This document shows, piece by piece, positions 38,913 through 62,022 of a DNA stretch of 64,000 bases. Source of the stretch: a virus. Position 1 is the stretch's first letter; each line of letters begins with the position of its first letter. The position numbers and the translations under genes were made by a program. Location of the stretch: IMG/VR virus record IMGVR_UViG_3300046779_001123, positions 9,972 through 73,971 of that record. One strand, written 5' to 3'. Under the pieces are notes generated by a model. That model was given only the letters and a program-made list of their open reading frames with translations. It did no database searches and was not told the DNA's origin.

Positions 38913-39207
38913 CCAATTAGTTTTGCTAGTTTTCACAAAACTAGACTGTGATGTATGGAGATGAGGAGTTGCACAAGTAGTATCCGACTTGAAATTGGAA
39001 TACTGCATAATTAACGTGATCCAGTGTCCTGAGATGAATTGGCGAAAGCCGTGTTTGTTGATGCTCAGAAAAATTGGTATCCTCTGCTTGTTGAATGTTG
39101 CTTTGGCGCTATACTGTAATGGTTATGCCAATGTTAATTGCAAATTGTTCAGCGGCTTACTTGCCATACACTCACTGTTTTATATTCAAATAGAAAGGAA
39201 CTCGAAT

Positions 39208-39774: not shown

Positions 39775-39781
39775 ATAGTTG

Positions 39782-39855
39782 TGCGGAAGAGTGAAACGGT
39801 TTCCACGGAAGTCTCATAAGCTTCAGACATCAGGTTCGACTCCTGCTTTCCGCAA
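39782..39855 (+). tRNA. tRNA anticodon CAT (Met, fMet or Ile2), copy 3
   Basis: Acceptor TGCGGAA/TTCCGCA, loop CTCATAA. Confidence 0.6.
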
Positions 39856-39906
39856 CCAGGCCTCGCCTTTGCTAACGGCGTATAATAGGATAAATTGTTA
39901 GCACTT

Positions 39907-39987
39907 GCCCCGGTGGTGTAATGGTAGCCACGCTGGTCTTAGAAGCCAGTGGAGAGATCCGTGTCGGTTCGAGTCCGACCTGGGGCA
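39907..39987 (+). tRNA. tRNA-Leu (TAG)
   Basis: Loop CTTAGAA, long variable arm. Confidence 0.85.
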
Positions 39988-39996
39988 CCAAAATTT

Positions 39997-40069
39997 GCGT
40001 GATTAACTCAGTTGGTAGAGTGCCAATTTGACTCGTTGGATGTCGGCAGTTCGAATCTGTCATCACGCA
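39997..40069 (+). tRNA. tRNA-Val (GAC), position 37 is U
   Basis: Acceptor GCGTGAT/ATCACGC, stem CCAAT/GTTGG, loop TTGACTC. Confidence 0.55.
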
Positions 40070-40087
40070 CCAAGCCATATATAAGCT

Positions 40088-41986: not shown

Positions 41987-42051
41987 TGGTAGCCACGCAG
42001 CGTTGAGGTCGCTGTGCCAAAAGCGTGTGAGTTCGAATCTCATCCCGGGTA
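41972..42051 (+). tRNA. tRNA-Leu (GAG)
   Basis: Stem CAGCG/CGCTG, loop TTGAGGT, long variable arm. Confidence 0.85.
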
Positions 42052-42061
42052 CCAAATTTAT

Positions 42062-49315: not shown

Positions 49316-50233
49316 TTGTCATTATCTATTATTTTCCATATTATGACATTAAATTTATTTCGCACTATTGCGACTTTTGTTTTATCTCTATCTGTATTTT
49401 CAAGTTATGCAGACACAGTGCCCTTGATCATACAAACCGGCCCCGGCGGACTGAATCACAAATACGCTCTAGAATTAGAACCAGTATTGACTAAAATTTT
49501 AGATGCGCCGGTTATCATTGAATTTAAGCCAGGTGGCCAAGGTATTGTCGGTGCAAGAGCATTAGCATCAAATAAAAACTCATCGATGTCACTTATGCTC
49601 GGGGCTGTCCAGCAAGACTTTGCAATAGATCAAACCAAGGATATTGTTCCGGTGTTAGATCTTGGCATTGCACCAACTGTTCTTATTGCAAAACCATCTT
49701 TGGGAATAAGTTCATTGTCACAACTGACCAAAACGTCCAGGAGTTACACTGTTGGAATTCCCAATGGCGCCGCACAACTTTATTGGGTTCGAGAGTTTGC
49801 TAAAAATTATAAAAATTTAAATTTGATCGAAGTTCCATACAAGTCAGGCGCGGCAGTGATAACCGATGTTATAGGAGGTCATGTTGATATCGGCATAGCA
49901 AGTGCCATTGGTGCAGCACCGCTGATTCAAGAAAATAAAGTAATTGTATTAGCTACATTATCTACCAAAAGATCTACTTTGATCCCAATAGTGCCTACTG
50001 CAAAAGAGCAAGGAATAGTCTACAAAAAAGACACAGTAGGGTTCAGCCATATGTATATTTGGGCCAACCCAGGAGCTTCTGTAGAATCGATACAAAAATT
50101 AAAATCTAGTTTTTACCAATGGGCAAACACTAGAGAAGCAATTGATTTATTTCAACGAATAGATCTAGGAGTAGACATTCAAGTAGTTGCAAAACCAGAA
50201 CTGTCTCTTCAAACATACATACAAGAAAAATAA
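49316..50233 (+). CDS. TctC/Bug-family periplasmic substrate-binding protein
   Basis: Signal peptide; family-like layout (VPYKSGAAVITDVIGGHVDIGIAS); AT-rich. Confidence 0.5.
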   Translation: MSLSIIFHIMTLNLFRTIATFVLSLSVFSSYADTVPLIIQTGPGGLNHKYALELEPVLTKILDAPVIIEFKPGGQGIVGARALASNKNSSMSLMLGAVQQDFAIDQTKDIVPVLDLGIAPTVLIAKPSLGISSLSQLTKTSRSYTVGIPNGAAQLYWVREFAKNYKNLNLIEVPYKSGAAVITDVIGGHVDIGIASAIGAAPLIQENKVIVLATLSTKRSTLIPIVPTAKEQGIVYKKDTVGFSHMYIWANPGASVESIQKLKSSFYQWANTREAIDLFQRIDLGVDIQVVAKPELSLQTYIQEK

Positions 50234-50242
50234 CAGTCAAAT

Positions 50243-51457
50243 ATGTCAATAGATGACAACTATGGGTATTACGGATACTATCAAGTAAATGACAAAATTT
50301 ATGTTAGTAAACATCATGCACTGGTAGCTGCCAACTTTGATTATTGGAAAATAAAATTTATATGGCACGACGATAAATTTTCTAGCTTTGATTGGACACG
50401 TGAACCAGAACCTCAGGTCAGTATCAAAGAATTCTACAAACGAAGAGCTATCCAATTAAGAGAAAAATATGATTATCTAATTTTAATGTTCAGTGGTGGG
50501 CCAGATTCCACTAACATGTTAAATGCGTTTATCGACAACGGTATTCATATAGATGAAATAGTAAATGTAAATAGCTTCGACCGAACTCAAATAGTAAATC
50601 AGACTATTCACAATGCAGACTATGTTTACAATGTCAAGCCTTATCTTGATAACTTGATTAAAGAGTCTAATTTTCAAACTAAAATTACCATAGTTGATGA
50701 AATTGAATTAGTTAAGCAGCACTGGAAACACCACGAAAAAATAGACCATTGGGAACCATTGTTTGGTGCTATCCCTGCACCTAGCATGATCATGACTAAA
50801 ATTATATGGATTAAGTATGTCCCACACCTATGGAAAATGGTCAAGGATGGGGTTAACCTAGGAATAATTATCGGGCATGCAAAAGCATCGTTGGAGGTTA
50901 AAAATAACAAATATACCACTTCGTTTACTGATATGCTAGGTCCAGATACTACTACGTATTGCAACGAAGAGCCGGAATTAAAAGGTCGTAATCTAATGGA
51001 CTTTTTTTACTCAAGCCCGAATGCAGTTGAGCTATCGATTAAACAAGCACATGTCTTAAAAAACTACATGGAATCTCATCGCACTTTGAATTTTTTTACC
51101 GACCCAAAGTTAGTAGATGACGCATACAAAAAAGGACAAAGAAGAGCAGTAACATGTGAAAGCAAATATGCGCCAGGACATCATCTTCGTTATGATTTAT
51201 TCCATCAAATTTTATATCCCGGACTAAAACAAAATTTCATAACTCCCAAAACATCATTGCTAACAACACGACCCGAGGATAACTGGTGGTTTCATAATTT
51301 TGATTACAACGACAAAAAAATATTCTTACACGGCATAGCCAAAGTCAAAAATTACATTCAATGGTCTGGCATGTCAAATATAGGATGGGACGGCAAAAGT
51401 GGGCAGTCTATAGAACATATTCCTTTAAGACAAGGAAAACTTTATTATCTAGAATAA
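50243..51457 (+). CDS. PP-loop ATP pyrophosphatase superfamily protein (paralog 2)
   Basis: YDYLILMFSGGPDSTNML; collinear with 26803 (LRxxYDYLxLxxSGGxDS...NIHIDEI). Confidence 0.5.
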   Translation: MSIDDNYGYYGYYQVNDKIYVSKHHALVAANFDYWKIKFIWHDDKFSSFDWTREPEPQVSIKEFYKRRAIQLREKYDYLILMFSGGPDSTNMLNAFIDNGIHIDEIVNVNSFDRTQIVNQTIHNADYVYNVKPYLDNLIKESNFQTKITIVDEIELVKQHWKHHEKIDHWEPLFGAIPAPSMIMTKIIWIKYVPHLWKMVKDGVNLGIIIGHAKASLEVKNNKYTTSFTDMLGPDTTTYCNEEPELKGRNLMDFFYSSPNAVELSIKQAHVLKNYMESHRTLNFFTDPKLVDDAYKKGQRRAVTCESKYAPGHHLRYDLFHQILYPGLKQNFITPKTSLLTTRPEDNWWFHNFDYNDKKIFLHGIAKVKNYIQWSGMSNIGWDGKSGQSIEHIPLRQGKLYYLE

Positions 51458-51460
51458 AAT

Positions 51461-51868
51461 ATGAATTTTATATTTAAAGCAAACACAAATTTTTTTGTTT
51501 ACACATCAGTGTTTAAAGACGAATATCAAAAAATGTCTGACGAAATTTCCAAATTGATTGCAAGCAGAAACAACTGGCAACAAGATGAAAAAAGTTATGT
51601 CGAAACTGTAGACGATCAACAGTTCTGGGTAGTTTCAAGAAAACATCCTGACTTAGATTTTTTTAGAAAAGTTATGATTGTTGTTGCACATAATCACACA
51701 GACGATATGCTCAAATACTTGTCGCAACATTCTATCATTAGGTATTTGTCATTAGAAGATGATTCTAACAAAGTAATCATTCCACAAACTCGGATACCAA
51801 ACGTCCGGGGTCATGATTACATGTTATGGATTGATAGCCTGTTAGCTAACCAACAAGTTTGTTCTTAG
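51461..51868 (+). CDS. Hypothetical protein (AT-rich)
   Basis: 135-aa ORF. Confidence 0.35.
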   Translation: MNFIFKANTNFFVYTSVFKDEYQKMSDEISKLIASRNNWQQDEKSYVETVDDQQFWVVSRKHPDLDFFRKVMIVVAHNHTDDMLKYLSQHSIIRYLSLEDDSNKVIIPQTRIPNVRGHDYMLWIDSLLANQQVCS

Positions 51869-53042
51869 CAATTTCAAAATCCAAATAACTGCAATCAATT
51901 ATTCGATCTGCAGAACATGTTAGGTTCCATTGTTGTATTACATTTGAAAAGTTATCAACTAACTCGTCGACAATAATTTTTTTAAACTGAGAATAAAAAT
52001 GTGTTTTATTATGCAACAATACCTCTTGCATTTCTTGTTGCATTTTTTTCAAACTAGGCATTGATAACGAAGAAATGTATTTTATTTGTTCTACTACCAT
52101 TTCCATTCGTTTGTTGTTATCAGTTTCTGCATCATAACTTTCGTCTATCCATTTGTCAAATGTTTGAAATCCATAGGATTTCAAATATGCAAGATTGCCA
52201 GGAGCACCCACTAATATAAATGGACGTTTACTAACAATTGGTTTAAAAATTTTTTCTGTAAGGTGTAATTTATTGTAATAGAACACTGTTTCTGTTACTA
52301 TGTGCCATAGAGCACTTTGATTTAGTGTCATTTCGTTTGCGCCTGCGTGTGCGCTAGCAGTAGAGCAAATATTGCTTGTGTCAACTAGTAACGGCCCTGT
52401 GAGAGTTGTTAGATGATTCTGAATTAAATTTTTTTGTTGAAGATTTAGTTTACTATATGGATTTTCTAACTCAGCTTGCCAAGCACCTTCTTGATGATGT
52501 CCTGTATGCAGACTCACATGCCCGTGATCAACCAGATCATGCTCAAAGAGCATTGCTACCAGCAATAATCGATAACTCCTATCACCTGTTAAAATTCTGT
52601 TAAGGCATATAAATTTTTTATCAAACTCTGCATCAAGATCAACATATTGATAATCTCTATACCAGTCCAGGGCGGCAAATCCGTGATAAAAATAATACCA
52701 GTTTACTAGATTATTTTCTTGACATAAAGTTTGTTTAAAATCAGATTGTTCACTATTGGCCAAAATTTTCATTCCGTATGATGTATCTAACACCATCTCG
52801 GGCCTTGACGCAAATCGTTCTTTCCATACTATTGATTCGTTGAGTGGCTCTTGGTCATAAAATACCAAAGCAGCTTTTGGTATGTGGAGAAAATTTATTT
52901 TGTTAGAAGCGTTTGGCAAATTCAGTGGTATTAAATCTGCGGGGTCTGTAGATCCAAATGTTCTAAAATAAAACGACAAAATATCTTCGGAATCTAATAG
53001 ATTTGATTTTAAAATAAAGTAAAAATTTTCAACTGAAAACAT
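51846..53042 (-). CDS. Hypothetical protein (398 aa, minus strand, AT-rich; possible glycosyltransferase-like)
   Basis: Long minus-strand ORF in an AT-rich island. Confidence 0.45.
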   Translation of the reverse strand: MFSVENFYFILKSNLLDSEDILSFYFRTFGSTDPADLIPLNLPNASNKINFLHIPKAALVFYDQEPLNESIVWKERFASRPEMVLDTSYGMKILANSEQSDFKQTLCQENNLVNWYYFYHGFAALDWYRDYQYVDLDAEFDKKFICLNRILTGDRSYRLLLVAMLFEHDLVDHGHVSLHTGHHQEGAWQAELENPYSKLNLQQKNLIQNHLTTLTGPLLVDTSNICSTASAHAGANEMTLNQSALWHIVTETVFYYNKLHLTEKIFKPIVSKRPFILVGAPGNLAYLKSYGFQTFDKWIDESYDAETDNNKRMEMVVEQIKYISSLSMPSLKKMQQEMQEVLLHNKTHFYSQFKKIIVDELVDNFSNVIQQWNLTCSADRIIDCSYLDFEIAKNKLVG

Positions 53043-53114
53043 AGGTAGTATTTACAATACATTTTGTAACCCAAAGTATTACTTTTTAAACCTTACAGTT
53101 TGTAGGGTTTCTTT

Positions 53115-53143
53115 TTGACTGTAAAATCAACTTTTGCTACAAT
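53115..53143 (+). promoter_or_regulatory. Conserved-family promoter (TTGACT-17-TGCTACAAT)
   Basis: TTGACTGTAAAATCAACTTTTGCTACAAT. Confidence 0.5.
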
Positions 53144-53173
53144 AGAAGCACTTAGACAGCAAAGGAACTGTAA

Positions 53174-53338
53174 ATGAGCAAAATGAGTGAGTTGTCGATT
53201 TTAATCCAAGAACGTCTCGAGCGTGGCGAAGAACCAGTTGATATCGCTTATGCACTTGACATTCCAATCTCTTGGATCTTTGAAGAGCAAGAACAGTTGC
53301 AAGAAAACAACAGTCCCTTTGCAACAATCAACAGTTAA
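53174..53338 (+). CDS. Small acidic protein (54 aa)
   Basis: AAAGGAACTG RBS. Confidence 0.3.
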   Translation: MSKMSELSILIQERLERGEEPVDIAYALDIPISWIFEEQEQLQENNSPFATINS

Positions 53339-53342
53339 GAGT

Positions 53343-53370
53343 TGACCGATAAATCAACTTTTGCTACAAT
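53343..53370 (+). promoter_or_regulatory. Conserved-family promoter (TTGACC-16-TGCTACAAT)
   Basis: TTGACCGATAAATCAACTTTTGCTACAAT. Confidence 0.5.
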
Positions 53371-53411
53371 AGAGTTTCAGTAGTTAATTTTTAAACAGAA
53401 AGGCCTAGTCC

Positions 53412-54494
53412 ATGTCAGATAACCGCACCGTCACCGCGACCCAAGCTCGCAAATCTTTGCTCGAAGCATTCCGCGTCAAGCGTCCTTTGTTCCTGTGGGG
53501 TCCTCCCGGTATCGGTAAATCCGAACTCGTCGAAGGCATTACTAAAGAACTTGGTGGCTTGATGATCGACTTGCGTTTGGGCCAAATGGAACCCACAGAC
53601 ATTCGTGGTATTCCGTTTTACAACAAAGACTCCAATACCATGGAGTATGCGGCACCTGGTGATTTGCCCGACGAAGAAACTGCTAGCCAGTATCCCGTGG
53701 TTGTGTTGTTCTTGGACGAAATGAACTCTGCACCAGCTTCTGTGCAATCAGCGGCTTATCAGCTGATTTTGAATCGTCGTGTTGGCAAGTATAAACTGCC
53801 CGACAACGTGGTTATGGTTGCCGCAGGCAATCGTGAAAGCGACAAGGGTGTGACTTATCGCATGCCAACTCCGCTGGCAAACCGCTTCATCCACCAAGAG
53901 ATGAAAGTGGACTTCCCCAGCTGGCAAGAGTGGGCTGTGCAAAACAACATCCACAAAGACGTTGTTGGTTATTTGAGTTTTGCCAAGCAAGACTTGTATG
54001 ACTTTGATGCCAAGTCTGCGTCACGTGCATTCGCTACCCCACGTTCATGGAGCTTTGTGAGCCAGCTGTTGAATGACGGCGTGGACGACGAAACTATGAC
54101 TAACTTGGTTGCAGGCACTGTTGGCGAAGGTTTGGCAGTTAAGTTCATGGCACACCGTAAGATTGCAGGTCGCATGCCCAAGCCCGAAGATATCTTGAAC
54201 GGCAAGGTCACTGACTTGAATGTCAAGGAAGTGTCGGCAATGTATTCGTTGGTGATTTCCATGTGCTACGAATTGAAGGGCGCTGTGGAAAAGAAGATGG
54301 ACTCCAAAGAGTTCCACAACATGGCAGATAACTTCTTCAGCTACATGATGAAGAACTTTGAAACTGAGTTGGTTGTGATGGGTGCTCGTATTGCATTGAC
54401 CACATACAACTTGCCGTTCCAACCTACCAAGTTGAAGAACTTTGATCAGTTCCACGACAAATACGGCAAATACATTTTGCAGGCTTCGGCCTAA
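53412..54494 (+). CDS. MoxR-family AAA+ ATPase (CobS-like)
   Basis: LFLWGPPGIGKSEL Walker A, VVLFLDEMNSA Walker B; AGAAAGG RBS. Confidence 0.8.
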   Translation: MSDNRTVTATQARKSLLEAFRVKRPLFLWGPPGIGKSELVEGITKELGGLMIDLRLGQMEPTDIRGIPFYNKDSNTMEYAAPGDLPDEETASQYPVVVLFLDEMNSAPASVQSAAYQLILNRRVGKYKLPDNVVMVAAGNRESDKGVTYRMPTPLANRFIHQEMKVDFPSWQEWAVQNNIHKDVVGYLSFAKQDLYDFDAKSASRAFATPRSWSFVSQLLNDGVDDETMTNLVAGTVGEGLAVKFMAHRKIAGRMPKPEDILNGKVTDLNVKEVSAMYSLVISMCYELKGAVEKKMDSKEFHNMADNFFSYMMKNFETELVVMGARIALTTYNLPFQPTKLKNFDQFHDKYGKYILQASA

Positions 54495-54550
54495 ACTAAG
54501 AAGGTTGTGGGGTGCCAGGCTGTGCCCCACAGCCTTTTCTTTTGAAAACT

Positions 54551-54877
54551 ATGCATTACAAAATCACAAAAATGGACGGCAGGTATTCCACGCATGGATA
54601 CACTCACCTCATTGAGTTTTCAAAATCTACTAGCCGCGGCACTGGTGTGTTAGATTTTGATCGTTGTCGACGTTGGTTTAATGAACACTTCGGCTGGAGC
54701 CAAGATGTTGAAACTCGCGATGAGATGAAGAGCAATAAGCGTGTCTTTAAAGAAGAATACGAAGACAACGACATTAATCCTATGTGGGCGTATAGCGTAA
54801 AATACAGGGAGTATCGTATCTACGTCAACGATGACAAAACATTGAGCTGGTTTGTTTTAAATCATCCTGCATCATGA
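54551..54877 (+). CDS. Small protein, WF-motif tandem family member 1
   Basis: C-terminal KTLSWFVLNH motif. Confidence 0.4.
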   Translation: MHYKITKMDGRYSTHGYTHLIEFSKSTSRGTGVLDFDRCRRWFNEHFGWSQDVETRDEMKSNKRVFKEEYEDNDINPMWAYSVKYREYRIYVNDDKTLSWFVLNHPAS

Positions 54878-55116
54878 GCCGTAGTTTTTATCTTCCATAC
54901 AAAGCCTCCAACCCGAGAAGTGTGCGTGGTGCTGTCAAACGTGGGTGGACTGTGATTGTGCCCAAACCAAACTATGTAGAAAAAACAAGTTGGCTGGGAC
55001 TTAACATTTGGTGCGGCGCTCGGTGCAGTGGGTATTGGATTGGAAATTTTGCAATGCGTAAATTTGCATTTGAAAAATCATCTGATGCAATGTTATTTCA
55101 ACTAGCATGGGGATAA
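54874..55116 (+). CDS. Small protein, tandem family member 2
   Basis: C-terminus DAMLFQLAWG; ATGA-coupled to upstream. Confidence 0.4.
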   Translation: MSRSFYLPYKASNPRSVRGAVKRGWTVIVPKPNYVEKTSWLGLNIWCGARCSGYWIGNFAMRKFAFEKSSDAMLFQLAWG

Positions 55117-55117
55117 G

Positions 55118-55360
55118 ATGTCTGACAAGTTTCGTGTTGATGTTGGAAGCCTTTGGAAAGAGCCTTGGCCTCAATACTTTGATAACTTTTGGCGGCATTG
55201 TAGCGACGTTGCCCGTGCAAACAGCTGGGCACCTATTACAGTGGCTAACTATCAACTTAGGCCATTAAATGGCAAATTGATTACTACTAAAACACAAGGT
55301 TGGTATCTGCGTTGGGACTCGGAAGCCAGCCATACTGCATTTGTATTGAAATGGAGTTGA
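55118..55360 (+). CDS. Small protein, tandem family member 3
   Basis: C-terminus HTAFVLKWS. Confidence 0.4.
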   Translation: MSDKFRVDVGSLWKEPWPQYFDNFWRHCSDVARANSWAPITVANYQLRPLNGKLITTKTQGWYLRWDSEASHTAFVLKWS

Positions 55361-55364
55361 ACAG

Positions 55365-55649
55365 TTGAAGTCTACAAGAATAAGTGTATTAGCACAAGAA
55401 TTAGGCAATGGTTGGTGGACTCGCACAGATTACGAAGAAGATGTCGACTATGCACTAGATTTAGCAGAACAACTGTTTGGCAAGGGTGGCACTAGAAAAG
55501 GTAAGTGGTTCCACCGAACAAGATTTGAATGGATTAATTCTGCTCCTGAAGTTGTTCAGCGTCAATGGTGCGACATATACTTCAAATCACAAAAGGATGC
55601 AACATGGTTTCAATTAAAGAGAGATTCATTGTCGTCCCAGACGTGTTGA
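55365..55649 (+). CDS. Small protein, tandem family member 4
   Basis: QRQWCDIYF...DATWFQLKRD. Confidence 0.4.
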   Translation: MKSTRISVLAQELGNGWWTRTDYEEDVDYALDLAEQLFGKGGTRKGKWFHRTRFEWINSAPEVVQRQWCDIYFKSQKDATWFQLKRDSLSSQTC

Positions 55650-55813
55650 CAGACACTGATCAAATGGTTATACTAACAGATTACAACTATTGGGCAGAGT
55701 GTGAAGTTGAGCTAGCGCAATGGTGCAAGGATAACGATTCAGATTTTACTGGAATGCTGGTAGTATTCCCCAATCACCAAACGTTAACAGCATTTTTATT
55801 GAGGTGGAGCTAA
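55604..55813 (+). CDS. Small protein, tandem family member 5 (start uncertain, overlaps member 4)
   Basis: AQWCKDND...LTAFLLRWS. Confidence 0.35.
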   Translation: MVSIKERFIVVPDVLTDTDQMVILTDYNYWAECEVELAQWCKDNDSDFTGMLVVFPNHQTLTAFLLRWS

Positions 55814-56052
55814 TGGAAAAGTTCTACGGTGGCGGAGGCAGGCAAAACCCAGACTTTAGATACAAGGTTCGAGTAAAACGTGATTCTTGCGAAGGCGCAT
55901 ACGAATGGTGCGAGGCATATCCTGTCACTGGCAAAGGCTACTTCCAGCGTTGGTATCTCGATACCCGAGAGTTTGATCAAGGCTACTTAACTTATCAATT
56001 TGAGTGGGAAGAGCCTGCTATTATGTTTGCATTGAAATTTGGATCAGCATGA
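55804..56052 (+). CDS. Small protein, tandem family member 6
   Basis: YEWCEAYPVTGKGYF...AIMFALKFG. Confidence 0.4.
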   Translation: MELMEKFYGGGGRQNPDFRYKVRVKRDSCEGAYEWCEAYPVTGKGYFQRWYLDTREFDQGYLTYQFEWEEPAIMFALKFGSA

Positions 56053-56267
56053 TTACATACACATATCCTTGGCCGGAACAGCCAACTTTTAAAGTGCCAA
56101 AATTGCACAGAGTAAACTACAATCCCAAATACAATTGGGGCGAAGTGCATTACTGGTGTAAGGAAAATTGTCGTGCTCCGTTTTACGTGTCAATGGCCTG
56201 GTCTGGCACATTTGTTCAGTTCGAAGACGACGAAGATGCAACACTATTTGCATTGAGGTTTGCGTGA
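56049..56267 (+). CDS. Small protein, tandem family member 7
   Basis: HYWCKENC...DATLFALRFA; ATGA coupling. Confidence 0.4.
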   Translation: MITYTYPWPEQPTFKVPKLHRVNYNPKYNWGEVHYWCKENCRAPFYVSMAWSGTFVQFEDDEDATLFALRFA

Positions 56268-56521
56268 AGCTGGAACTAGACGAAGGCCGTGTGTTTGGTG
56301 CAAGGTATTGGCTTGTGCATCCTGTGCCTAGTTGGAACTTGCTAGGAGATTGGGGCGGAGTCGACACCTGGCACCGAATGGTAGAGTGGTGTGTAGCCAC
56401 ATTTGGTCCTACCCCCAAAGATGGTGTTTGGACTCCGGGCTGTCGCTGGTATGCTAACAATGCTAGATTTTATTTTCGCAATGAAGCAGACCGAGATTGG
56501 TTTTTGTTGAGGTGGCAATGA
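56264..56521 (+). CDS. Small protein, tandem family member 8 (GTG start)
   Basis: VEWCVATFG...DRDWFLLRWQ; GTGA overlap with member 7 stop. Confidence 0.35.
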   Translation: MKLELDEGRVFGARYWLVHPVPSWNLLGDWGGVDTWHRMVEWCVATFGPTPKDGVWTPGCRWYANNARFYFRNEADRDWFLLRWQ

Positions 56522-56742
56522 ATAGCCGGCAACGTCGAAAAGATAGACGAGAGTGGAAATACATAATTGTCACTCCAACAACAGACTGGAATCAGTATAT
56601 AGATAGGTTTGACTGGTGTGTAAAGAACTTTGGTGGCTGTGTGACTGACGGATGGCGCGATCCACGAGAATACGGTGAGGATGTTGAATGGAAGTTCAAC
56701 TGCCCAAAGAAGGCAATGGCATTTGCAATGAGGTGGCAATGA
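56518..56742 (+). CDS. Small protein, tandem family member 9
   Basis: FDWCVKNFGG...KAMAFAMRWQ; ATGA coupling. Confidence 0.4.
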   Translation: MNSRQRRKDRREWKYIIVTPTTDWNQYIDRFDWCVKNFGGCVTDGWRDPREYGEDVEWKFNCPKKAMAFAMRWQ

Positions 56743-57017
56743 AATTAAAAGTTAACCGTAGCATCGGTTGGAATTTGGAATATGCAACAATGAAGATAAC
56801 ACAAATTATCACCGACGGTGCAGATTGCTATCCATGGACCCGAACATTTGTAATCTGGCCACGCCGAACAATCACAGGACAGCGCATTGGTTGGCAACGA
56901 GCTTACAAACGACGAGTTTGGGTAGTATGGGGCACAGGGTTTCACATGGAACCAGAAACACAATATGCAACACTTTTTGAGATATTAGCAGATGAAACCA
57001 ACAACAGGCTGGCGTAA
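56739..57017 (+). CDS. Small protein, tandem family member 10
   Basis: ...YATLFEILADE; ATGA coupling. Confidence 0.35.
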   Translation: MKLKVNRSIGWNLEYATMKITQIITDGADCYPWTRTFVIWPRRTITGQRIGWQRAYKRRVWVVWGTGFHMEPETQYATLFEILADETNNRLA

Positions 57018-57309
57018 AAAGCAAATCAATACCATAATGGCTGCTCGCCAAACAGGTAAAAGCACATACATGGACATAGCAAACCCTCCTGCAATTCGTA
57101 TTTTAGATCAAGCCCAAGTCGACGGCGAAACATGGTATACAGTTCAATGTAAACCTAGCTCAGTTAGTGGGTGGGTTCAAGAGCAAGATCCTTCACTGTG
57201 GCACCGACACGATCACATAGATACAAAATGGTATATGCACTTTAATGTGTTTGACATGCACGAAAAACTTTACACAATGATGGTGTTAAAATGGAAGAAC
57301 GTTTCGTAA
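56992..57309 (+). CDS. Small protein, tandem family member 11 (start uncertain; ATG 57037 alternative)
   Basis: C-terminus YTMMVLKWKN. Confidence 0.35.
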   Translation: MKPTTGWRKKQINTIMAARQTGKSTYMDIANPPAIRILDQAQVDGETWYTVQCKPSSVSGWVQEQDPSLWHRHDHIDTKWYMHFNVFDMHEKLYTMMVLKWKNVS

Positions 57310-57659
57310 TAAACGACTTGATGGATAACGCATACTCTGTGACCTGGCCCGGTTATGAGATGGTGGTATGCGACAATGAACGCAAGGCCACTAATCTGCT
57401 GAAAATTCTGTTTGACGAAGTTGATGTAGAAGATGCTACATTGGCCGTAAAAGTAGCCGAGTATAGTGACAAAGATTACATCATAAGCATTCCTTGGTAT
57501 ACCTATCATCAGAATCCCGACGGTGCAGGCAGGTTCCTTGTTGGCAATCACGCTGTAGTCGGTTGTAAGTTCCCCAATCGAGAACAAGCAGAAAAGTTTA
57601 AAACAATCATGGACAAACGCCTGGCATGGCGTCGCCTTAGTGGCAGAGGGTGGGCATGA
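57291..57659 (+). CDS. Small protein in tandem array (member 12, divergent)
   Basis: Contains EDATLAVKVAEY. Confidence 0.35.
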   Translation: MEERFVINDLMDNAYSVTWPGYEMVVCDNERKATNLLKILFDEVDVEDATLAVKVAEYSDKDYIISIPWYTYHQNPDGAGRFLVGNHAVVGCKFPNREQAEKFKTIMDKRLAWRRLSGRGWA

Positions 57660-57934
57660 AAGTCACAGTTAAAAAGAATCTGATCATCTTCCACCGGCCC
57701 GGGGAGTGGTCAGACATCTATGCTATGATCCTGCGGGACTTTGGCATGGGCATGGCTGTAAGGACTCGCATGCGGCGTGAGCTTGGGTTTACATACCGCT
57801 ATCACAAAGGATTAGTCCCGCACGAAATCAGTCATCCCAGCGAGCCAAAAATGCACTACGAGGACCAAGTCCACTTGGATTTCTTTGATGAAAAAGCCCA
57901 AAGTTGGTTCCAGCTAAAATACTTAAATTTGTAA
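57650..57934 (+). CDS. Small protein, tandem family member 13
   Basis: C-terminus AQSWFQLKYLNL. Confidence 0.4.
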   Translation: MGMKVTVKKNLIIFHRPGEWSDIYAMILRDFGMGMAVRTRMRRELGFTYRYHKGLVPHEISHPSEPKMHYEDQVHLDFFDEKAQSWFQLKYLNL

Positions 57935-57969: not shown

Positions 57970-57999
57970 TTGACCAAAAATGCCCGATTTGCTATAATA
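57970..57999 (+). promoter_or_regulatory. Conserved-family promoter
   Basis: TTGACCAAAAATGCCCGATTTGCTATAATATACACATAG. Confidence 0.55.
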
Positions 58000-58027: not shown

Positions 58028-58198
58028 ATGTTTTATGTGATTACACTAGGCCAGGATGATGCAAAGTTTGCAATCGGTCGCAACGAATACGACCGCAGTG
58101 GTCGGATCACTTTTGTGCGTCAACCCCAAACATATCGGAGCCGTGCTCAAGCACTCAAGGTTGCAAAACAACTCAATAGCAAGGTGGAATCAAAATGA
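58028..58198 (+). CDS. Small hypothetical protein (56 aa)
   Basis: AAAAGGAGCC SD before ATG. Confidence 0.35.
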   Translation: MFYVITLGQDDAKFAIGRNEYDRSGRITFVRQPQTYRSRAQALKVAKQLNSKVESK

Positions 58199-58443
58199 AC
58201 GAACGAATGCTAGAACTTTACAGACAGGCCCAAGTGCCGGACACTGCGATTGATCCGTCTAACAACATGCCCTATGAGACAACCCGATTTAGCGCAGACA
58301 AGTTCGCCGAGTTGATTGTGCGAGCCTGTGCTAACGCCGCTGACATGGCACAAGACGCTGGTTGCGAATATGCCGGTGACTATGTTGCTGAATACATGGG
58401 CTACGGTGAACAAGAAGGCGTAACAGAATGGAGAGCAAAATGA
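58195..58443 (+). CDS. Small protein, KFAELI-motif family (paralog B)
   Basis: MNERMLEL...DKFAELIVRA; same ATGAACGAACGAAT start as paralog A. Confidence 0.4.
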   Translation: MNERMLELYRQAQVPDTAIDPSNNMPYETTRFSADKFAELIVRACANAADMAQDAGCEYAGDYVAEYMGYGEQEGVTEWRAK

Positions 58444-58745
58444 ACATCCACACCGTAGCAGAAAATCTGCGTAAAACAATCGCCGGCAAGGAAGAAATGC
58501 TGGAAAAACTACAAGAATCTAAGAATGTTGCCGCTCGTAAAGATAATCCCGACCAATTAACTATCGGAACTATCGGGGCAATGGCAGGATTCTTGTCTAC
58601 CAATATTGACGAACTCAAGCGTATCTTACAGGATGTGGAGAAGTGTTGCGAAAAAGCCACAGCGGATAGTTGGGCACTGAACCCCGACCGTTCAGGTGGT
58701 GCATTCACTGACGAAGAAATCAACCGTGGCAACGAGCGGCATTGA
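58440..58745 (+). CDS. Hypothetical protein
   Basis: ORF 58428 trimmed to the ATG overlapping the upstream stop. Confidence 0.35.
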   Translation: MNIHTVAENLRKTIAGKEEMLEKLQESKNVAARKDNPDQLTIGTIGAMAGFLSTNIDELKRILQDVEKCCEKATADSWALNPDRSGGAFTDEEINRGNERH

Positions 58746-58770
58746 CGAATAATTCATCTTTTGCTACAAT
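58743..58770 (+). promoter_or_regulatory. Conserved-family promoter (TTGACG-16-TGCTACAAT)
   Basis: TTGACGAATAATTCATCTTTTGCTACAATATATTCATAG. Confidence 0.5.
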
Positions 58771-58799
58771 ATATTCATAGAGCAACAAAGGAGCCAAAG

Positions 58800-59075
58800 A
58801 TGGACATGGTCAATGCCACTAAACTTATTCAGGAACAGGCAACAGCAAACGGAAGGCCTTTTGCTGAAGAACTAATTTATATTTCTGAAACTTTGCAGGC
58901 ATCGTCCGACATTTACGATGCTTTCATTGTGTATCATAGCACCATAAACCGCTATTTCAGTTATAGTGCCAGAAAAGCACAGATCGAACAGTTTGCCCGC
59001 GATTTCAAATGTTTGTCCCAGGATTTCAAAGATCAAATGTATAATGACACATTTACAAACGCCAAAACTTACTGA
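58800..59075 (+). CDS. Hypothetical protein
   Basis: AAAGGAGCC SD before ATG 58800. Confidence 0.35.
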   Translation: MDMVNATKLIQEQATANGRPFAEELIYISETLQASSDIYDAFIVYHSTINRYFSYSARKAQIEQFARDFKCLSQDFKDQMYNDTFTNAKTY

Positions 59076-59104
59076 TTGACCAATAAATCACATTCTGCTA
59101 TAAT
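59076..59104 (+). promoter_or_regulatory. Conserved-family promoter
   Basis: TTGACCAATAAATCACATTCTGCTATAATATACACATAA. Confidence 0.55.
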
Positions 59105-59130: not shown

Positions 59131-60453
59131 ATGCAATATTTCAATCCCACTGTGCTACATGCCCGTACCGCTGGCACCACTGCTACCAAAGATGACGCTA
59201 AAAAGTTTGCCAATTTGATTGGCCCCATGGAGCCCAAGTTGGATCGCGAAGTGCGTGAAAAATTGATCACTGCCCGTGTGGGCTTGCTGTTGAAAGCCAG
59301 CTTCTTTGGCAACTTAGCAACTCGACTGAAGTTGGTTAATGCCGACGAGTGGTGCCCTACTGCCGCTACAGATGGACGCCACTTTTACTACAATAGCCGC
59401 TTCATCCAAATGTTGCGTCCCAAAGAAATTGAGTTCTTGTTTGGCCACGAAGTGTTGCACTGTGTTTATGATCACTTTGGCCGCCGTGGCGATCGCGATC
59501 CGCAAATCTGGAACATTGCCAACGATTTCTGTGTCAACGCAGACTTGGTTAAACACAATGTCGGCGAGTTGATTACTACAGTGCCTGCCTTGTATGATCG
59601 CAAGTATGACGGCATGAGCTCCGAAGAAGTCTACGACGACTTGATGCAAAACGCTCAAAAAATCAACATGAGCGACTTGATCGACAAGTTGATCGACGAG
59701 CACTTGGACGGTGAAGGTGATGCTGACGGCGATGGTGAAGAAGGCGATCAGGACGGTGAAGGCAAGGGCAAAGGCCGTCCCAAGCTCAGCGATGCTGAAC
59801 GTCAAGCTATCCGCGACGAGATCAAAGAAGCTATGTTGGCGGCTGCAAGTGCCACACAAGATGCAGGCAACATTCCAGCTGGTGTCAAGCGATTGATCTC
59901 GGACTTGACCGAGCCTAAGATGAACTGGCGCGAACTGTTGCGCATGCAATTGGAGTCTACTATCAAGTCTGACTACACTTGGATGCGAGCAAGCCGTAAA
60001 GGTTGGCACATGGATGCGGTTATGCCCGGTCGCAATACTGATCCAATGATTGATATTGCTGTGGCGTTGGACGCTTCTGGTTCGATCTCTGAATCTATGT
60101 TGAAGGACTTCTTGAGTGAAATCCAAGGCATTATGGACTCGTTCCCTGCTTACAAGATTCACGTTATCACTTTCGATACTGATGCATACAACCCTGCACA
60201 ATACGACAGCGACAACTTGGATACCATTTGCGATTACGAAGTCAAAGGTGGTGGTGGCACAGACTTTGACTGTGTTTACAACTACTTGAAAGAAAACGAA
60301 ATCGAGCCCAAGCGACTGGTTATGTTTACAGACGGTTATCCGTTTGGTAGCTGGGGTGATGAGAACTACACAGAAACAGTTTTCATCTTGCATGGCACTA
60401 CAACTATTGTGCCACCATGGGGTCAATATGCCTACTACGACGAAAGCAAATAA
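59131..60453 (+). CDS. vWA-domain protein with N-terminal zincin-like HExxH metallopeptidase domain (DUF2201-like, CobT-like partner of MoxR)
   Basis: FGHEVLHCVYDH (HExxH), acidic linker DGEGDADGDGEEGDQDGEG, MIDAS ALDASGSIS. Confidence 0.7.
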   Translation: MQYFNPTVLHARTAGTTATKDDAKKFANLIGPMEPKLDREVREKLITARVGLLLKASFFGNLATRLKLVNADEWCPTAATDGRHFYYNSRFIQMLRPKEIEFLFGHEVLHCVYDHFGRRGDRDPQIWNIANDFCVNADLVKHNVGELITTVPALYDRKYDGMSSEEVYDDLMQNAQKINMSDLIDKLIDEHLDGEGDADGDGEEGDQDGEGKGKGRPKLSDAERQAIRDEIKEAMLAAASATQDAGNIPAGVKRLISDLTEPKMNWRELLRMQLESTIKSDYTWMRASRKGWHMDAVMPGRNTDPMIDIAVALDASGSISESMLKDFLSEIQGIMDSFPAYKIHVITFDTDAYNPAQYDSDNLDTICDYEVKGGGGTDFDCVYNYLKENEIEPKRLVMFTDGYPFGSWGDENYTETVFILHGTTTIVPPWGQYAYYDESK

Positions 60454-61015: not shown

Positions 61016-61174
61016 ATGTCAGATCGTTGGATTGTAATTTTAATTTTTGGTGTTATGTTTCTAATGTTTGCCCCAATTGGCTGCATGGAATACAGCAAAC
61101 ATCAATGTCGCATCGAGGCAATCAAGGCCGGCGTCGAAGCAGATAAAATCAACACGGCCTGTGGAGTTAAGTAA
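61016..61174 (+). CDS. Small membrane protein (52 aa, one TM helix)
   Basis: TAAGGAATACT RBS; hydrophobic IVILIFGVMFLMFAPIG. Confidence 0.35.
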   Translation: MSDRWIVILIFGVMFLMFAPIGCMEYSKHQCRIEAIKAGVEADKINTACGVK

Positions 61175-62022
61175 TGTTTACTATCATCTTTTTCTTTATT
61201 ATAGCAGTGATTGCTTCCGCGGCAATTGCTGTATTCCTCCAGCAAAAGGTGCTGGCTAATGTAGCAGGTATTGCTATCTTTGCTGTTGGTGTAATCTACA
61301 GCTCATTTACTATTGTGCCAGCAGGCCATGTGGGTGTGCAGATTACCCTAGGCGAAGTTAATCAAACTGTGCTAAACGAAGGTGCTCAGTTTGTTAACCC
61401 AATCTCAAATGTCAAACATGTTGATGTTCGACTTGCTCGTGCTAACTTGAATAACGCAAGTGCAGGCACAAAGGACATTCAGCAAGTGCATACTGATATT
61501 GTTATTAACTATCGACTGACTCCTGCTAAGGTGCCACACATCTACAAAGAGTTCGGTCTTGATGTGGATACAAAGGTGCTTGGTCCAGCGATCAATGAAT
61601 CGTTTAAGTCAGCAGTGGGTCACTATACCAGTGAAGAACTGATTACAAAACGTGATGCAGTTAACGCAGACATTATGACTCGACTGAGCGAAAAGTTGCA
61701 ACCGTTTAACATTGTTGTAAACAACGTGAGCTTGGTTAACTTTGGATTCAGTAAAGCATATCAAGATGCTATTGAACAAAAAGTGATTGCTACACAGGCC
61801 AAACTGCGAGCAGATCAAGACTACGAACGTATTCAAGTTGAAGCCAAGAGTCGTATTGCACAAGCCAAAGGTGAAGCCGAAGCTATTGCAATTCAAGCAA
61901 GTGCTATCCAACACCAAGGTGGTGCGGCATACGTTCAGCTCCAAGCAATCGAAAAGTGGGATGGTAAGTTGCCCAACGTGATGGGAGCAGGGCCTACACC
62001 GTTTATTAATGTAGGCAAGTAA
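61174..62022 (+). CDS. SPFH/band-7 (prohibitin/HflK-like) membrane protein
   Basis: N-terminal TM helix then VPAGHVGVQITLGEV band-7 core; coiled-coil C-terminus. Confidence 0.7.
   Translation: MFTIIFFFIIAVIASAAIAVFLQQKVLANVAGIAIFAVGVIYSSFTIVPAGHVGVQITLGEVNQTVLNEGAQFVNPISNVKHVDVRLARANLNNASAGTKDIQQVHTDIVINYRLTPAKVPHIYKEFGLDVDTKVLGPAINESFKSAVGHYTSEELITKRDAVNADIMTRLSEKLQPFNIVVNNVSLVNFGFSKAYQDAIEQKVIATQAKLRADQDYERIQVEAKSRIAQAKGEAEAIAIQASAIQHQGGAAYVQLQAIEKWDGKLPNVMGAGPTPFINVGK

What the first reader, a model, noticed from the sequence alone, without database searches (positions are those of the whole stretch)
54551..57934. Tandem array of about 12 small paralogous genes sharing a C-terminal WF-x-L-[KR]-[WF] motif
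Thirteen ORFs of 69-122 aa are consecutive and co-directional, often coupled by ATGA or GTGA overlaps. At least ten end in a conserved motif: [DE]AT[LW]F[AQV]L[KR][WF] (DATLFALRFA, DRDWFLLRWQ, KAMAFAMRWQ, HTAFVLKWS, AQSWFQLKYL and others). Several share an upstream (E/D)W-C...G...W core. The array is wedged between the MoxR ATPase and its vWA-zincin partner. Expanded, fast-diverging small-gene arrays of this kind are typical of host-takeover or anti-defence functions. I recognise no known family.
Basis: seen in the sequence. Interest (0 to 1): 0.7.

Follow-up and report, generated by a model that had tools for sequence, protein, structure and literature searches.

The report
Tandem array of unnamed small phage proteins
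A jumbo-phage genome carries 13 back-to-back small genes, at least 11 of which belong to one large, unnamed family of about 70-residue proteins whose copy number swings from 0 to about 30 between related phages; what the proteins do is unknown.

Summary
Thirteen co-directional, mostly start/stop-overlapping genes fill 54551-57934. A profile built only from related phages, with no window sequence, scores 10 of them above every one of 4,625 antisense ORFs. An 11th (g3) passes with the C-terminal motif profile. g10 and g12 are not detectable members.

Orthologues in closer relatives give dN/dS of 0.03-0.20 for 11 of the genes (g2, g4-g13), so these are real proteins. Relatives of g1 show dN 0.2-0.4 with dS saturated. 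No orthologue of g3 was found, so its coding status rests on the motif alone.

The family is absent from Pfam (apart from a sub-threshold g1-type match), PHROGs, NCBIfam and PDB. Three members tested by tblastn found nothing in 50,697 isolated phages. A metagenomic protein library holds 923 clusters of it.

In related phages the MoxR-to-vWA gap runs from 48 bp with no copies to about 9 kb with about 32 small genes, so this is an expansion hot spot.

The nearly invariant residues are aromatic or aliphatic, and pI ranges from 4 to 10. I infer a library of diversified binding modules, probably for host takeover or counter-defence. That function is untested.

This is a new family within a known kind of phenomenon.

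The parts
53342..53370 (+). Promoter-like site TTGACC-N14-TGC-TACAAT (sigma-70 type with extended -10), 42 nt upstream of the ATPase gene. It is the only such site upstream of the array.
   Evidence: 14 sites in the window, all on the + strand, against 0.31 expected; 263 sites on the + strand against 2 on the - strand in 1.35 Mb of related loci; 44 of 81 loci have one just upstream of the ATPase.
53412..54494 (+). MoxR-type AAA+ ATPase, 360 aa.
   Evidence: Pfam AAA_3 (3.6e-7), AAA, AAA_5, and weak bpMoxR; 70-86% identical orthologues in 80 IMG/VR loci.
54517..54535 (+). Stem-loop of 8 bp (5 G-C pairs) followed by TTTCTTTT, between the ATPase stop and the g1 start. It looks like a terminator or attenuator.
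   Evidence: pattern scan only; function not shown.
54551..54877 (+). g1, 108 aa. Conserved 'anchor' family member that follows the ATPase in 29 related loci. Its motif tail is degenerate (SWFVLNHPAS), but orthologues keep MFQLRW.
   Evidence: 18.7 bits against a null maximum of 8.9; hhalign against the family, E 2e-5. AF2 pLDDT 87.6, topology ββα(α)ββα; sub-threshold PF21629.
54874..55116 (+). g2, 80 aa, family member (…FAFEKSSDAMLFQLAWG).
   Evidence: partial orthologue (30 C-terminal residues, cut by the contig end) in L090, dN/dS 0.19.
55118..55360 (+). g3, 80 aa, motif-level member (…SHTAFVLKWS). Absent from the close relative L090.
   Evidence: motif profile 16.1 bits against a null maximum of 5.3; domain profile borderline..
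55365..55649 (+). g4, 94 aa (TTG start; an alternative start may lie about 21 nt downstream, by comparison with the gene call in L090; codon not checked). Family member with a 9-aa extension after the motif.
   Evidence: dN/dS 0.20.
55604..55813 (+). g5, 69 aa. Member of the very abundant 'RF-x-VP…DY-x-WW…W[CM]…GM-x-V-x-F…FLLRW' subfamily.
   Evidence: dN/dS 0.10.
55813..56052 (+). g6, 79 aa, family member (…YEWCEAY…IMFALKFGSA).
   Evidence: 91% aa identity, dN/dS 0.03.
56049..56267 (+). g7, 72 aa, family member (…HYWCKEN…DATLFALRFA).
   Evidence: (32.8 bits).
56264..56521 (+). g8, 85 aa (GTG start overlapping the g7 stop), family member (…VEWCVATFG…DRDWFLLRWQ).
   Evidence: 29.4 bits; dN/dS 0.17.
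56518..56742 (+). g9, 74 aa, family member. This is the protein modelled first.
   Evidence: 29.4 bits. AF2 pLDDT 83.7, pTM 0.69, topology (h)βαββα; dN/dS 0.14.
56739..57017 (+). g10, 92 aa. A real gene, but family membership is not demonstrated.
   Evidence: null-level score; hhalign P 0.039; orthologue 85% identical, dN/dS 0.09.
56992..57309 (+). g11, 105 aa. Family member of the N-terminally extended type (W-x…ARQTGKST… then the domain).
   Evidence: aligns full-length with 15 database proteins, 33% identity; 11.3 bits against a null maximum of 8.9; dN/dS 0.10.
57291..57659 (+). g12, 122 aa. A real gene, but family membership is not demonstrated. Its C-terminal CKF-x5-QA-x2-F-x-T-I-M stretch has the family spacing.
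   Evidence: null-level score; hhalign P 0.024; orthologue 51% identical, dN/dS 0.19.
57656..57934 (+). g13, 92 aa. Conserved 'anchor' member that closes the array (…HLDFFDEKAQSWFQLKYLNL).
   Evidence: 22 loci by phmmer; 41.2 bits; at least 1,018 database clusters; dN/dS 0.02-0.11.
57970..57998 (+). Promoter-like site of the same class, starting the next transcription unit after the array.
58028..59075 (+). Four further small genes (58028-58198, 58195-58443, 58428-58745, 58761-59075) that are not family members. Another promoter-like site lies at 58742-58770.
   Evidence: (null scores for the first two, the only ones listed). No ORF of the window outside the array exceeds the null maximum; orthologues of two of them follow the g13 orthologue in L088.
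59076..59104 (+). Promoter-like site of the same class, 27 nt upstream of the vWA gene.
   Evidence: 43 of 65 loci have one upstream of the vWA gene.
59131..60453 (+). Metallopeptidase (DUF2201_N) plus VWA-like (DUF2201) protein, 440 aa.
   Evidence: 1.2e-38 and 5.7e-16.

Best explanation
Shown. The region is a tandem array of a previously unnamed family of small soluble phage proteins.
- The core is about 60-70 residues. The modelled fold is a two-layer α/β sandwich: βαββα in g9 and ββαββα in g1.
- The nearly invariant positions are aromatic or aliphatic: a Trp in helix 1, F-x-F in the last strand, and F-x-L-[KR]-W in the C-terminal helix. I infer from residue type that these form the core; burial was not measured on the models. 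Net charge and pI vary widely, from 4.1 to 10.2.
- The genes are translationally coupled. The last codons double as the ribosome-binding site and start codon of the next gene.
- The array sits in a hot spot downstream of the MoxR ATPase gene, where related jumbo phages carry anything from 0 to about 30 such genes.
- Every gene with a detected relative shows purifying selection. No orthologue of g3 was found.

Inferred. The array is transcribed from the sigma-70-like promoter in front of the ATPase gene, reading through a hairpin. That would make it early, host-RNA-polymerase-dependent expression. Each paralogue is a binding module with its own target, most likely host proteins. The array would then be an interchangeable toolkit for host takeover or counter-defence that is reshuffled between phages by gain, loss and exchange of whole gene cassettes.
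For: The family is real.
- Relatives-only profiles separate 10-11 of the window genes from 4,625 antisense ORFs.
- Searches found 231 members in 80 loci, none antisense.
- A library of 1.84 billion proteins holds 923 clusters (50% identity) at E ≤ 1e-3. All 150 listed are 54-144 aa (most 60-120), with the domain at or within a few residues of the C-terminus in nearly all.

The genes encode proteins.
- dN/dS is 0.03-0.20 for g2 and g4-g13. Family-wide the median is about 0.25, with none above 1.

Fold.
- AF2 gives pLDDT 83.7 for g9 and 87.6 for g1.
- The nearly invariant positions are W, F, F, L, W. pI ranges from 4.1 to 10.2.

Hot spot.
- The ATPase-to-vWA gap runs from 48 to 5,649 bp in 65 loci and correlates with member count, r = 0.91. 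Twenty-three loci have a gap under 300 bp and no members between the two genes.
- L024 has 17 members. L082 has 17 small genes. L083 has about 32 small genes, of which at least 18 are members.
- g3 is absent from a close relative. In L088 a g13 orthologue with 97% aa identity is preceded by an unrelated gene.

Coupling.
- Of 209 members, 129 have the next start overlapping their stop, and Arg is AGG in 30 of 68 cases against a 5% background.
- SD-like 4-mers occur in the last 15 nt of 42% of coupled members, against 11% of uncoupled members and 14% of background. The final codon is mostly NNA (GCA, TCA), which creates the ATGA overlap.

Transcription.
- The promoter class occurs 14 times in the window against 0.31 expected, all on the + strand. 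It flanks the array but does not occur inside it.

General principle. Cargo of phage diversity hot spots is enriched in defence and counter-defence genes (abstract of bioRxiv 10.1101/2024.10.15.618418).
Against: - No functional evidence of any kind exists. No member matches a characterised anti-defence or host-takeover protein by sequence or fold.
- Orthologues are under ordinary purifying selection, not the positive selection often seen in arms-race genes.
- Early timing is inferred only from promoter consensus. The hairpin after the ATPase gene might terminate transcription and leave the array without an identified promoter.
- Iyer et al. 2021 (PMC7824862) propose a virion-assembly role for this MoxR-vWA pair. 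If so, the neighbourhood would be late or structural.
- The persistent location next to MoxR/vWA could mean a functional link rather than a neutral hot spot.
Confidence: 0.45

Rival explanations
1. The small proteins are adaptors, substrates or specificity factors of the neighbouring MoxR AAA+ / vWA-metallopeptidase machine. Each paralogue would deliver a different client, from phage or host, for remodelling or cleavage.
For: - Nearly every member found lies directly after the ATPase gene or directly after the vWA gene: 69 between the two, 50 after the ATPase, 108 after the vWA, and only 4 upstream, within ±10 kb.
- g1-type genes follow the ATPase in 29 loci and g13-type genes precede the vWA gene in 22.
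- The array has no promoter of its own and appears to be co-transcribed with the ATPase.
- MoxR/vWA systems are known to work on dedicated clients (abstracts of PMC9976466 and PMC13036017).
Against: - Twenty-three related loci have the ATPase and vWA genes adjacent with no member between them, and several (L004, L020) have none within ±10 kb.
- PA5oct-like phages keep the pair but carry unrelated membrane proteins at this site.
- All sampled loci come from one syntenic phage clade and cover only ±10 kb, so the co-location may simply reflect synteny and sampling.
- The vWA gene usually has its own promoter.
Confidence: 0.12
2. They are ACT/DCoH-like small-molecule-binding oligomers, for example sponges or sensors for metabolites or immune signalling nucleotides.
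Against: - No polar or glycine-rich ligand-site residues are conserved. Only apolar aromatic/aliphatic residues are nearly invariant.
- Surfaces and charge differ widely between paralogues, which does not fit one shared ligand class.
Confidence: 0.08
3. They are nucleic-acid-binding regulators (RRM-like or transcription/translation factors) that tune phage or host gene expression.
Against: Half of all members are acidic (51% with pI below 6). No RNP-like motif or conserved basic patch exists, and the fold matches are generic.
Confidence: 0.08
4. They are minor virion or internal head proteins, or assembly factors, matured by the neighbouring chaperone/peptidase.
For: Iyer et al. propose a virion-assembly and peptidolytic-processing role for this MoxR/vWA-peptidase pair (PMC7824862). 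The PA5oct ATPase carries an 'ESI-MS/MS' note.
Against: - Copy number from 0 to about 30 between close relatives is unlike structural genes.
- The flanking promoters look like host sigma-70 promoters.
- No member matched a PHROG structural family.
Confidence: 0.07
5. The shared C-terminal motif is a by-product of nucleotide-level constraints (ribosome-binding site plus overlapping start of the next gene), not of common protein ancestry.
For: AGG is used for 44% of the motif Arg against a 5% background. SD-like 4-mers are three-fold enriched in coupled genes. The last codon is forced to NNA by the ATGA overlap.
Against: - The motif is equally present in 99 members whose stop is not overlapped by a start and whose tails show no SD enrichment.
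- Lys (AAA/AAG, no SD) is more common than Arg at that position.
- Conservation extends 40-60 residues upstream to the Trp of helix 1.
- AF2 folds the segment as an integral helix.
Confidence: 0.02

Closest known systems
Pfam PF21629 'Bleomycin_resist_prot_dom'
   Same: It is the only curated model that responds. Nine of 21 g1-type proteins hit it (best E 2.6e-5), and five database orthologues carry a precomputed PF21629.3 hit.
ACT domain / ferredoxin-like βαββαβ sandwiches (e.g. TyrA ACT domain, PDB 5v0s) and DCoH/PCD (PDB 2ebb)
   Different: Identity is 5-14%. The g9-type core ends in a helix and lacks the final strand. No ligand-site residues are conserved. The resemblance is at fold-class level only.
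Lineage-specific expansions of small domains in jumbo phages (e.g. about 35 zinc-ribbon copies in Bacillus phage G; Iyer et al. 2021, PMC7824862)
   Same: Many copies of one small domain in a single jumbo-phage genome, function unknown.
   Different: The domain is different (α/β sandwich, no metal ligands). The copies are arranged as translationally coupled tandem cassettes at one hot spot, and copy number varies from 0 to about 30 between close relatives.
Hypervariable accessory-gene hot spots of phage genomes (iLund4u survey, bioRxiv 10.1101/2024.10.15.618418)
   Same: A fixed site between conserved core genes whose cargo differs between related genomes.
   Different: Here the cargo is dominated by a single protein family rather than a mixture of unrelated genes.
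MoxR AAA+ / vWA-metallopeptidase pair of group 2.2 (T4-related) jumbo phages (Iyer et al. 2021)
   Same: The flanking genes match that description: an AAA_3/AAA_5 ATPase plus DUF2201_N+DUF2201.
   Different: The passages of that paper retrieved here do not mention small genes between the two. In 23 of 65 related loci the two genes are adjacent.

Membership tests
The new family itself (working definition: about 60-70-aa C-terminal domain, Trp in helix 1, F-x-F-x4-[DE]A-x2-F-x-L-[KR]-[WFY] at the end) | Scores above a null of non-coding ORFs with a profile that contains no window sequence | tested here: met
   g1, g2, g4-g9, g11 and g13 score above all 4,625 antisense ORFs with the domain profile. 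g3 does so with the motif profile only. g10 and g12 do not.
The new family itself | Shared predicted fold in two distant members | tested here: met
   Both g9 and g1 contain a β-α-β-β-α core that ends in the motif helix, with pLDDT 84 and 88. The g10 and g12 folds were not modelled.
Pfam PF21629 Bleomycin_resist_prot_dom | Whole-protein score at or above the gathering cut-off (27 bits) | tested here: not met
   g1 scores 23.5 bits and the match is partial (25 of 63 positions). The other 12 array genes give no hit. A few g1 orthologues elsewhere do carry the precomputed hit.
Pfam PF21629 Bleomycin_resist_prot_dom | Fold related to bleomycin-resistance/glyoxalase βαβββ modules (assumed from the family's name; my own knowledge) | tested here: not met
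ACT domain | βαββαβ topology with four strands | tested here: not met
ACT domain | Conserved ligand-binding loop and dimeric ligand site | not testable with these tools
   Only apolar aromatic/aliphatic residues are nearly invariant. The oligomeric state could not be predicted here.
Obligate component of the MoxR/vWA system | Co-occurrence: present wherever the ATPase-vWA pair is present | tested here: not met
   23 of 65 loci have the pair adjacent with no member between, and L004 and L020 have none within ±10 kb. PA5oct has none at this locus.
Obligate component of the MoxR/vWA system | Physical interaction with the ATPase or vWA protein | not testable with these tools
   No complex prediction or experiment was available.
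Known anti-defence or host-takeover proteins (anti-CRISPR, Ocr/Arn-type mimics, nucleotide sponges, anti-sigma factors) | Sequence or fold match to a characterised member | tested here: not met
Known anti-defence or host-takeover proteins | Phenotype: inhibits a defence system or a host process | not testable with these tools
   Requires experiments. The host is unknown.
Terminase large-subunit N-terminus (considered for the N-terminal extension of g11-type proteins) | Significant profile match to terminase or another P-loop family | tested here: not met
   The best PDB hit has E 0.24 (a Grc3 kinase P-loop). Pfam gives AAA_14 for 1 of 14 members at E 0.083. This is only a Walker-A-like G-R-Q-x-G-K-S resemblance.

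The most novel reading that the evidence does not exclude
The array is a swappable library of targeting adaptors for the adjacent MoxR AAA+ remodeller and vWA-metallopeptidase. Each paralogue would use its variable surface to capture a different host protein, for example a defence protein, and hand it to the ATPase/peptidase for unfolding or cleavage. That would be a phage-encoded, modular 'targeted inactivation' system whose specificity evolves by cassette exchange.
Probability: 0.07. Interest if true: 0.85.

Novelty: new member of a known kind. Interest (0 to 1): 0.5.

Why it matters
The family is large, with 923 clusters at 50% identity and more than a thousand 90%-identity clusters for the g13 type alone. 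It is restricted so far to an abundant clade of uncultured jumbo phages known only from metagenomes, and it has no annotation at all.

A single scaffold present in 0 to about 30 copies per genome, at one hot spot, is a compact candidate set for discovering host-interaction or counter-defence activities.

It would also make a good model for two questions: how phages expand and reshuffle gene cassettes, and how a protein's C-terminus can be co-opted as the translation-initiation signal of the next gene.

If there is a functional link to the MoxR/vWA-peptidase pair, it would give that enigmatic phage chaperone system its first clients.

Tried and rejected
- Single-sequence Pfam, PHROGs and NCBIfam scans of all 13 genes and of database homologues gave nothing above threshold.
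- PDB sequence searches with family profiles returned only chance-level hits.
- tblastn of g1, g13 and a g5-type consensus protein against 50,697 isolated phage genomes found no match.
- The nearest isolated phages (PA5oct group, about 72% DNA identity over small parts of the region, about 4% of the query) carry unrelated membrane-protein genes at the site.
- A scan of 185,579 species-representative genomes with a g5-type protein gave one weak 19-residue hit in a MAG.
- I suspected the N-terminal extension of g11-type proteins was a terminase Walker-A fragment. This is not supported, and such proteins lie in the same MoxR-vWA arrays, not beside a terminase gene.
- g10 and g12 could not be shown to be members by HMM or by hhalign.
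- The AFDB Foldseek library was unavailable.
- An exact-sequence look-up of g9 found no record, so the window's own source could not be traced.
- Literature searches found no description of the family or of PF21629.
- The idea that the motif is purely an RBS artefact was rejected (see the rival explanations).

Full report
WHAT IS THERE

Between a MoxR-type AAA+ ATPase gene and a metallopeptidase-vWA gene lie 17 small + strand genes. The ATPase gene is at 53412-54494 and matches Pfam AAA_3, AAA and AAA_5. The vWA gene is at 59131-60453 and matches DUF2201_N at 1.2e-38 and DUF2201 at 5.7e-16.

The first 13 small genes (g1-g13, 54551-57934) are the finding. They are packed almost without spacers:
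- Six junctions are ATGA or GTGA overlaps and one is TGATG.
- Three junctions are longer overlaps of 19-46 nt.
- Two junctions are gaps of 1 and 4 nt.

The start of g8 is the GTG at 56264, which overlaps the g7 stop, not the upstream TTG. The starts of g5, g11 and g12 are supported by homologues that share the same N-termini.

IS THE FAMILY REAL?

Pairwise BLAST relates only g2-g7 and g8-g9, so the claim rests on profiles.

- A 22-residue ungapped profile of the C-terminal motif from ten window genes was searched against all six-frame ORFs (8,549 ORFs of at least 40 aa). These came from the window plus 80 related IMG/VR loci fetched with the ATPase, which is 70-86% identical there. It found 77, rising to 114, ORFs. 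Every one was on the coding strand and none was among the roughly 4,600 antisense ORFs.
- A full-domain profile reached 231 members, again with no antisense hit, and pulled in g1.

To remove circularity I rebuilt both profiles from the relatives only.
- g1, g2, g4-g9, g11 and g13 each out-score all 4,625 antisense ORFs with the domain profile.
- g3 does so with the motif profile (16.1 bits against a null maximum of 5.3).
- g10 and g12 score at null level.
- Nothing else in the 64-kb window scores above the null.

hhalign places the C-terminal F-x(5-6)-[DY]A-x2-F stretch of g10 and g12 in register with the family, but at P of about 0.03. I leave these two unresolved.

In multiple alignments the Trp of the 'W-C' element is invariant or nearly so. 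The F, F, L and W of the tail are at least 90% conserved.

ARE THEY GENES?

Two short contigs from a closer relative (L089, L090) carry orthologues of g2 and g4-g13 in the same order. dN/dS is 0.03-0.20 at dS of roughly 0.65-2.2 (about 0.65-1.3 for most genes), and this includes g10 (0.09) and g12 (0.19).

Across the family, 58 orthologous pairs with unsaturated dS give a median ω of 0.24, with none above 1.

The sequences are therefore under ordinary purifying selection. What changes quickly is gene content.

THE HOT SPOT

- In 65 related loci that contain both flanking genes, the ATPase-to-vWA gap runs from 48 to 5,649 bp. The number of family members inside it correlates with gap length, r = 0.91. 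Twenty-three loci have a gap under 300 bp and no member between the two genes.
- L024 has 17 members after the ATPase with the vWA gene beyond the 10-kb flank.
- L082 has 17 small genes between the two.
- L083, from a 352-kb contig, has about 32 small genes over 8.8 kb, of which at least 18 are detectable members.
- In L070 and L085 the array follows the vWA gene instead.
- g1-type genes (29 loci) and g13-type genes (22 loci by phmmer; at least 1,018 database clusters) are conserved 'bookends'.
- The genes between the bookends mostly have no orthologue among the 80 loci.
- g3 is missing from the close relative L090. In L088 a g13 orthologue with 97% amino-acid identity is preceded by an unrelated 215-aa gene.
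- Window genes that do have relatives are closer to genes in other phages' arrays than to their window paralogues. For example, g9 is 53% identical to L024_8229 but 29% to g8. The paralogy is therefore old, and arrays differ by gain, loss and exchange of cassettes.

HOW WIDESPREAD, AND IS IT KNOWN?

- A profile search of 1.84 billion cluster representatives gave 923 proteins at E ≤ 1e-3 and 33 at ≤ 1e-10. All 150 listed are 54-144 aa (most 60-120), with the domain ending at or within a few residues of the C-terminus in nearly all.
- All named hits are 'hypothetical protein', and none has a Pfam domain.
- Pfam, PHROGs, NCBIfam and PDB sequence searches are negative.
- The single exception is the g1 type. 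It gives a recurrent but sub-threshold and partial match to PF21629 'Bleomycin_resist_prot_dom': 9 of 21 members, with the window's g1 at 23.5 bits against a 27-bit cut-off. A few database orthologues carry the precomputed hit.
- No isolated phage genome in a 50,697-record collection encodes a detectable g1, g13 or g5-type protein.
- PA5oct-like phages, the nearest cultured relatives, have unrelated membrane proteins at this site.
- BFVD holds structurally similar 'uncharacterized proteins' from uncultured Caudovirales only.
- The flanking MoxR/vWA-peptidase pair has been described for group 2.2 jumbo phages and proposed to act in virion assembly (Iyer et al. 2021, PMC7824862). The passages of that paper retrieved here do not mention the small genes.

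FOLD

- AlphaFold2 on g9 with 47 homologues gives pLDDT 83.7 and pTM 0.69. The topology is a short N-terminal helix followed by β-α-β-β-α.
- g1 with 36 orthologues gives pLDDT 87.6 and pTM 0.79. The topology is β-β-α-(α)-β-β-α.
- The nearly invariant residues are all aromatic or aliphatic, so they probably form the hydrophobic core (an inference from residue type; burial was not measured). Net charge ranges from -7 to +8.5 and pI from 4.1 to 10.2 among the window genes. Across the family 51% are acidic and 23% strongly basic.
- That pattern fits one stable scaffold with many different surfaces. It argues against a single shared ligand such as DNA.

EXPRESSION SIGNALS

- A promoter class, TTGAC-N15-TG-N-TAYAAT, occurs 14 times in the window against 0.31 expected, all on the + strand. 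It occurs 263 times on the + strand against 2 on the - strand in the related loci.
- Sites lie before the ATPase gene (53342), after g13 (57970), at 58742, and before the vWA gene (59076). None lies within or directly before the array.
- A hairpin with a T-run (54517-54535) separates the ATPase gene from g1.
- I infer that the array is expressed by read-through from the ATPase promoter. Because the promoters look like host sigma-70 promoters, I also infer that expression is early. Both points are inferences.

Within the array, translation is evidently coupled, and the protein tail does double duty.
- Arg in the [KR] position is AGG in 44% of cases against 5% in long ORFs.
- Of 209 members, 129 have the next start overlapping their stop.
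- SD-like 4-mers occur in the last 15 nt of 42% of coupled members, against 11% of uncoupled members and 14% of background.
- The last codon is mostly GCA or TCA, which creates the ATGA overlap.
- The motif is nevertheless a protein feature. Uncoupled members keep it, Lys is as common as Arg, and it forms the terminal helix of the fold.

INTERPRETATION

Shown: a real, large, unannotated protein family; a translationally coupled tandem array; purifying selection on the genes that have detected relatives; and a copy-number hot spot.

Inferred: the paralogues are diversified binding modules, probably expressed early. They most likely act on host proteins for takeover or counter-defence, in line with what cargo of phage hot spots usually does (bioRxiv 10.1101/2024.10.15.618418). 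I give that about 45%.

The main rival is that they are adaptors or clients of the MoxR/vWA-peptidase machine. The tight co-location favours it. Against it, many relatives keep the pair with no family member nearby, and the vWA gene has its own promoter.

The ACT-like ligand-binding, nucleic-acid-binding and structural roles remain possible at lower probability. An RBS artefact is essentially excluded.

VERDICT

The finding is correct as an observation. The family is new, but the phenomenon is of a known kind: a lineage-specific expansion of a small domain in a phage hypervariable site. Interest is moderate and would rise sharply if a link to the AAA+/peptidase pair or a counter-defence activity were shown.

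Noticed in passing
window 25425-42054: ARAGORN tRNA genes, all on the + strand, covering nearly all amino acids. One is an odd call with a two-base 'anticodon' at 34730-34820. This explains the absence of long ORFs between about 28.6 and 35.6 kb and marks the source as a jumbo phage.
   Followed up: no
window 9493, 25387, 30072, 30740, 30841, 37813, 45483, 45828, 46397, 53115, 53342, 57970, 58742, 59076 (start coordinates): There is a clade-wide promoter-like motif with consensus TTGACCAATAAATC-N5-TTTTGCTAYAAT. It occurs 14 times in the window against 0.31 expected, all on the + strand. It occurs 263 times on the + strand against 2 on the - strand in 1.35 Mb of related loci.
   Followed up: partly
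window 56992-57309 (g11); database proteins P0051, P0055, P0063, P0064, P0067, P0071, P0074, P0078, P0081, P0089, P0090, P0094, P0096, P0103: One subfamily carries a roughly 45-aa N-terminal extension, 'M-K-L-E-P-W-Q…G-R-Q-[ST]-G-K-S', that resembles a P-loop/Walker A segment too short to be an ATPase. Profile searches do not tie it to terminase or any other family. Its purpose is unexplained.
   Followed up: partly
3' ends of g1-g13 and of 209 family genes in related loci: The C-termini are dual-coded. AGG-TGG (Arg-Trp) supplies a Shine-Dalgarno-like sequence. A final NNA codon (GCA or TCA) followed by TGA creates the next gene's ATG. TCA is used 16 times against AGT 3 times, although AGT is the commonest Ser codon.
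   Followed up: yes
related loci, e.g. L042:10614-10859, L003:19172-19420, L033:3897-4100, L080-type genes after the vWA gene: Two further well-conserved single-copy subfamilies with the same C-terminal motif lie a few kb downstream of the vWA gene in many relatives. They are 'GDVEDPDLYAAQPIYEWQQTEAGKWVMKH…FKLKW' (35 members) and 'PPHF…SKQWV…GRF…FEDPxEAxxYELKWS' (12 or more members). No ORF of the window outside the array scored above the null.
   Followed up: no
window 51846-53042 (- strand) and 50001-54000: This is one of very few long ORFs on the - strand of the window. It is 398 aa with no Pfam hit and sits in the lowest-GC stretch (0.34-0.39 against about 0.43 elsewhere), directly upstream of the ATPase unit. 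It may be a recent acquisition.
   Followed up: no
window 16411-18171, 40088-41986, 49316-50233, 61174-62022: The phage carries several auxiliary genes: a three-domain TPP enzyme (acetolactate-synthase-like), a B12-binding radical-SAM protein, a TctC-family solute-binding protein, and an SPFH/Band 7 protein just after the vWA gene. TctC and Band 7 keep the same positions in relatives.
   Followed up: no
window 55646-55674 and 57251-57278: Two sigma-70-like hexamer pairs lie inside the array: TTGACA-17-TATACT in the g4/g5 overlap and TTGACA-16-CACAAT before g12. They lack the extended TGC element of the main class and may be chance matches or weak internal promoters.
   Followed up: no
L088:1-648 versus window 57291-57659: In a contig whose g13 orthologue is 97% identical in protein, the upstream neighbour is an unrelated gene of at least 215 aa instead of g12. 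dS between the two g13 genes is about 1.0 despite the near-identical protein, which indicates very strong constraint on g13.
   Followed up: partly
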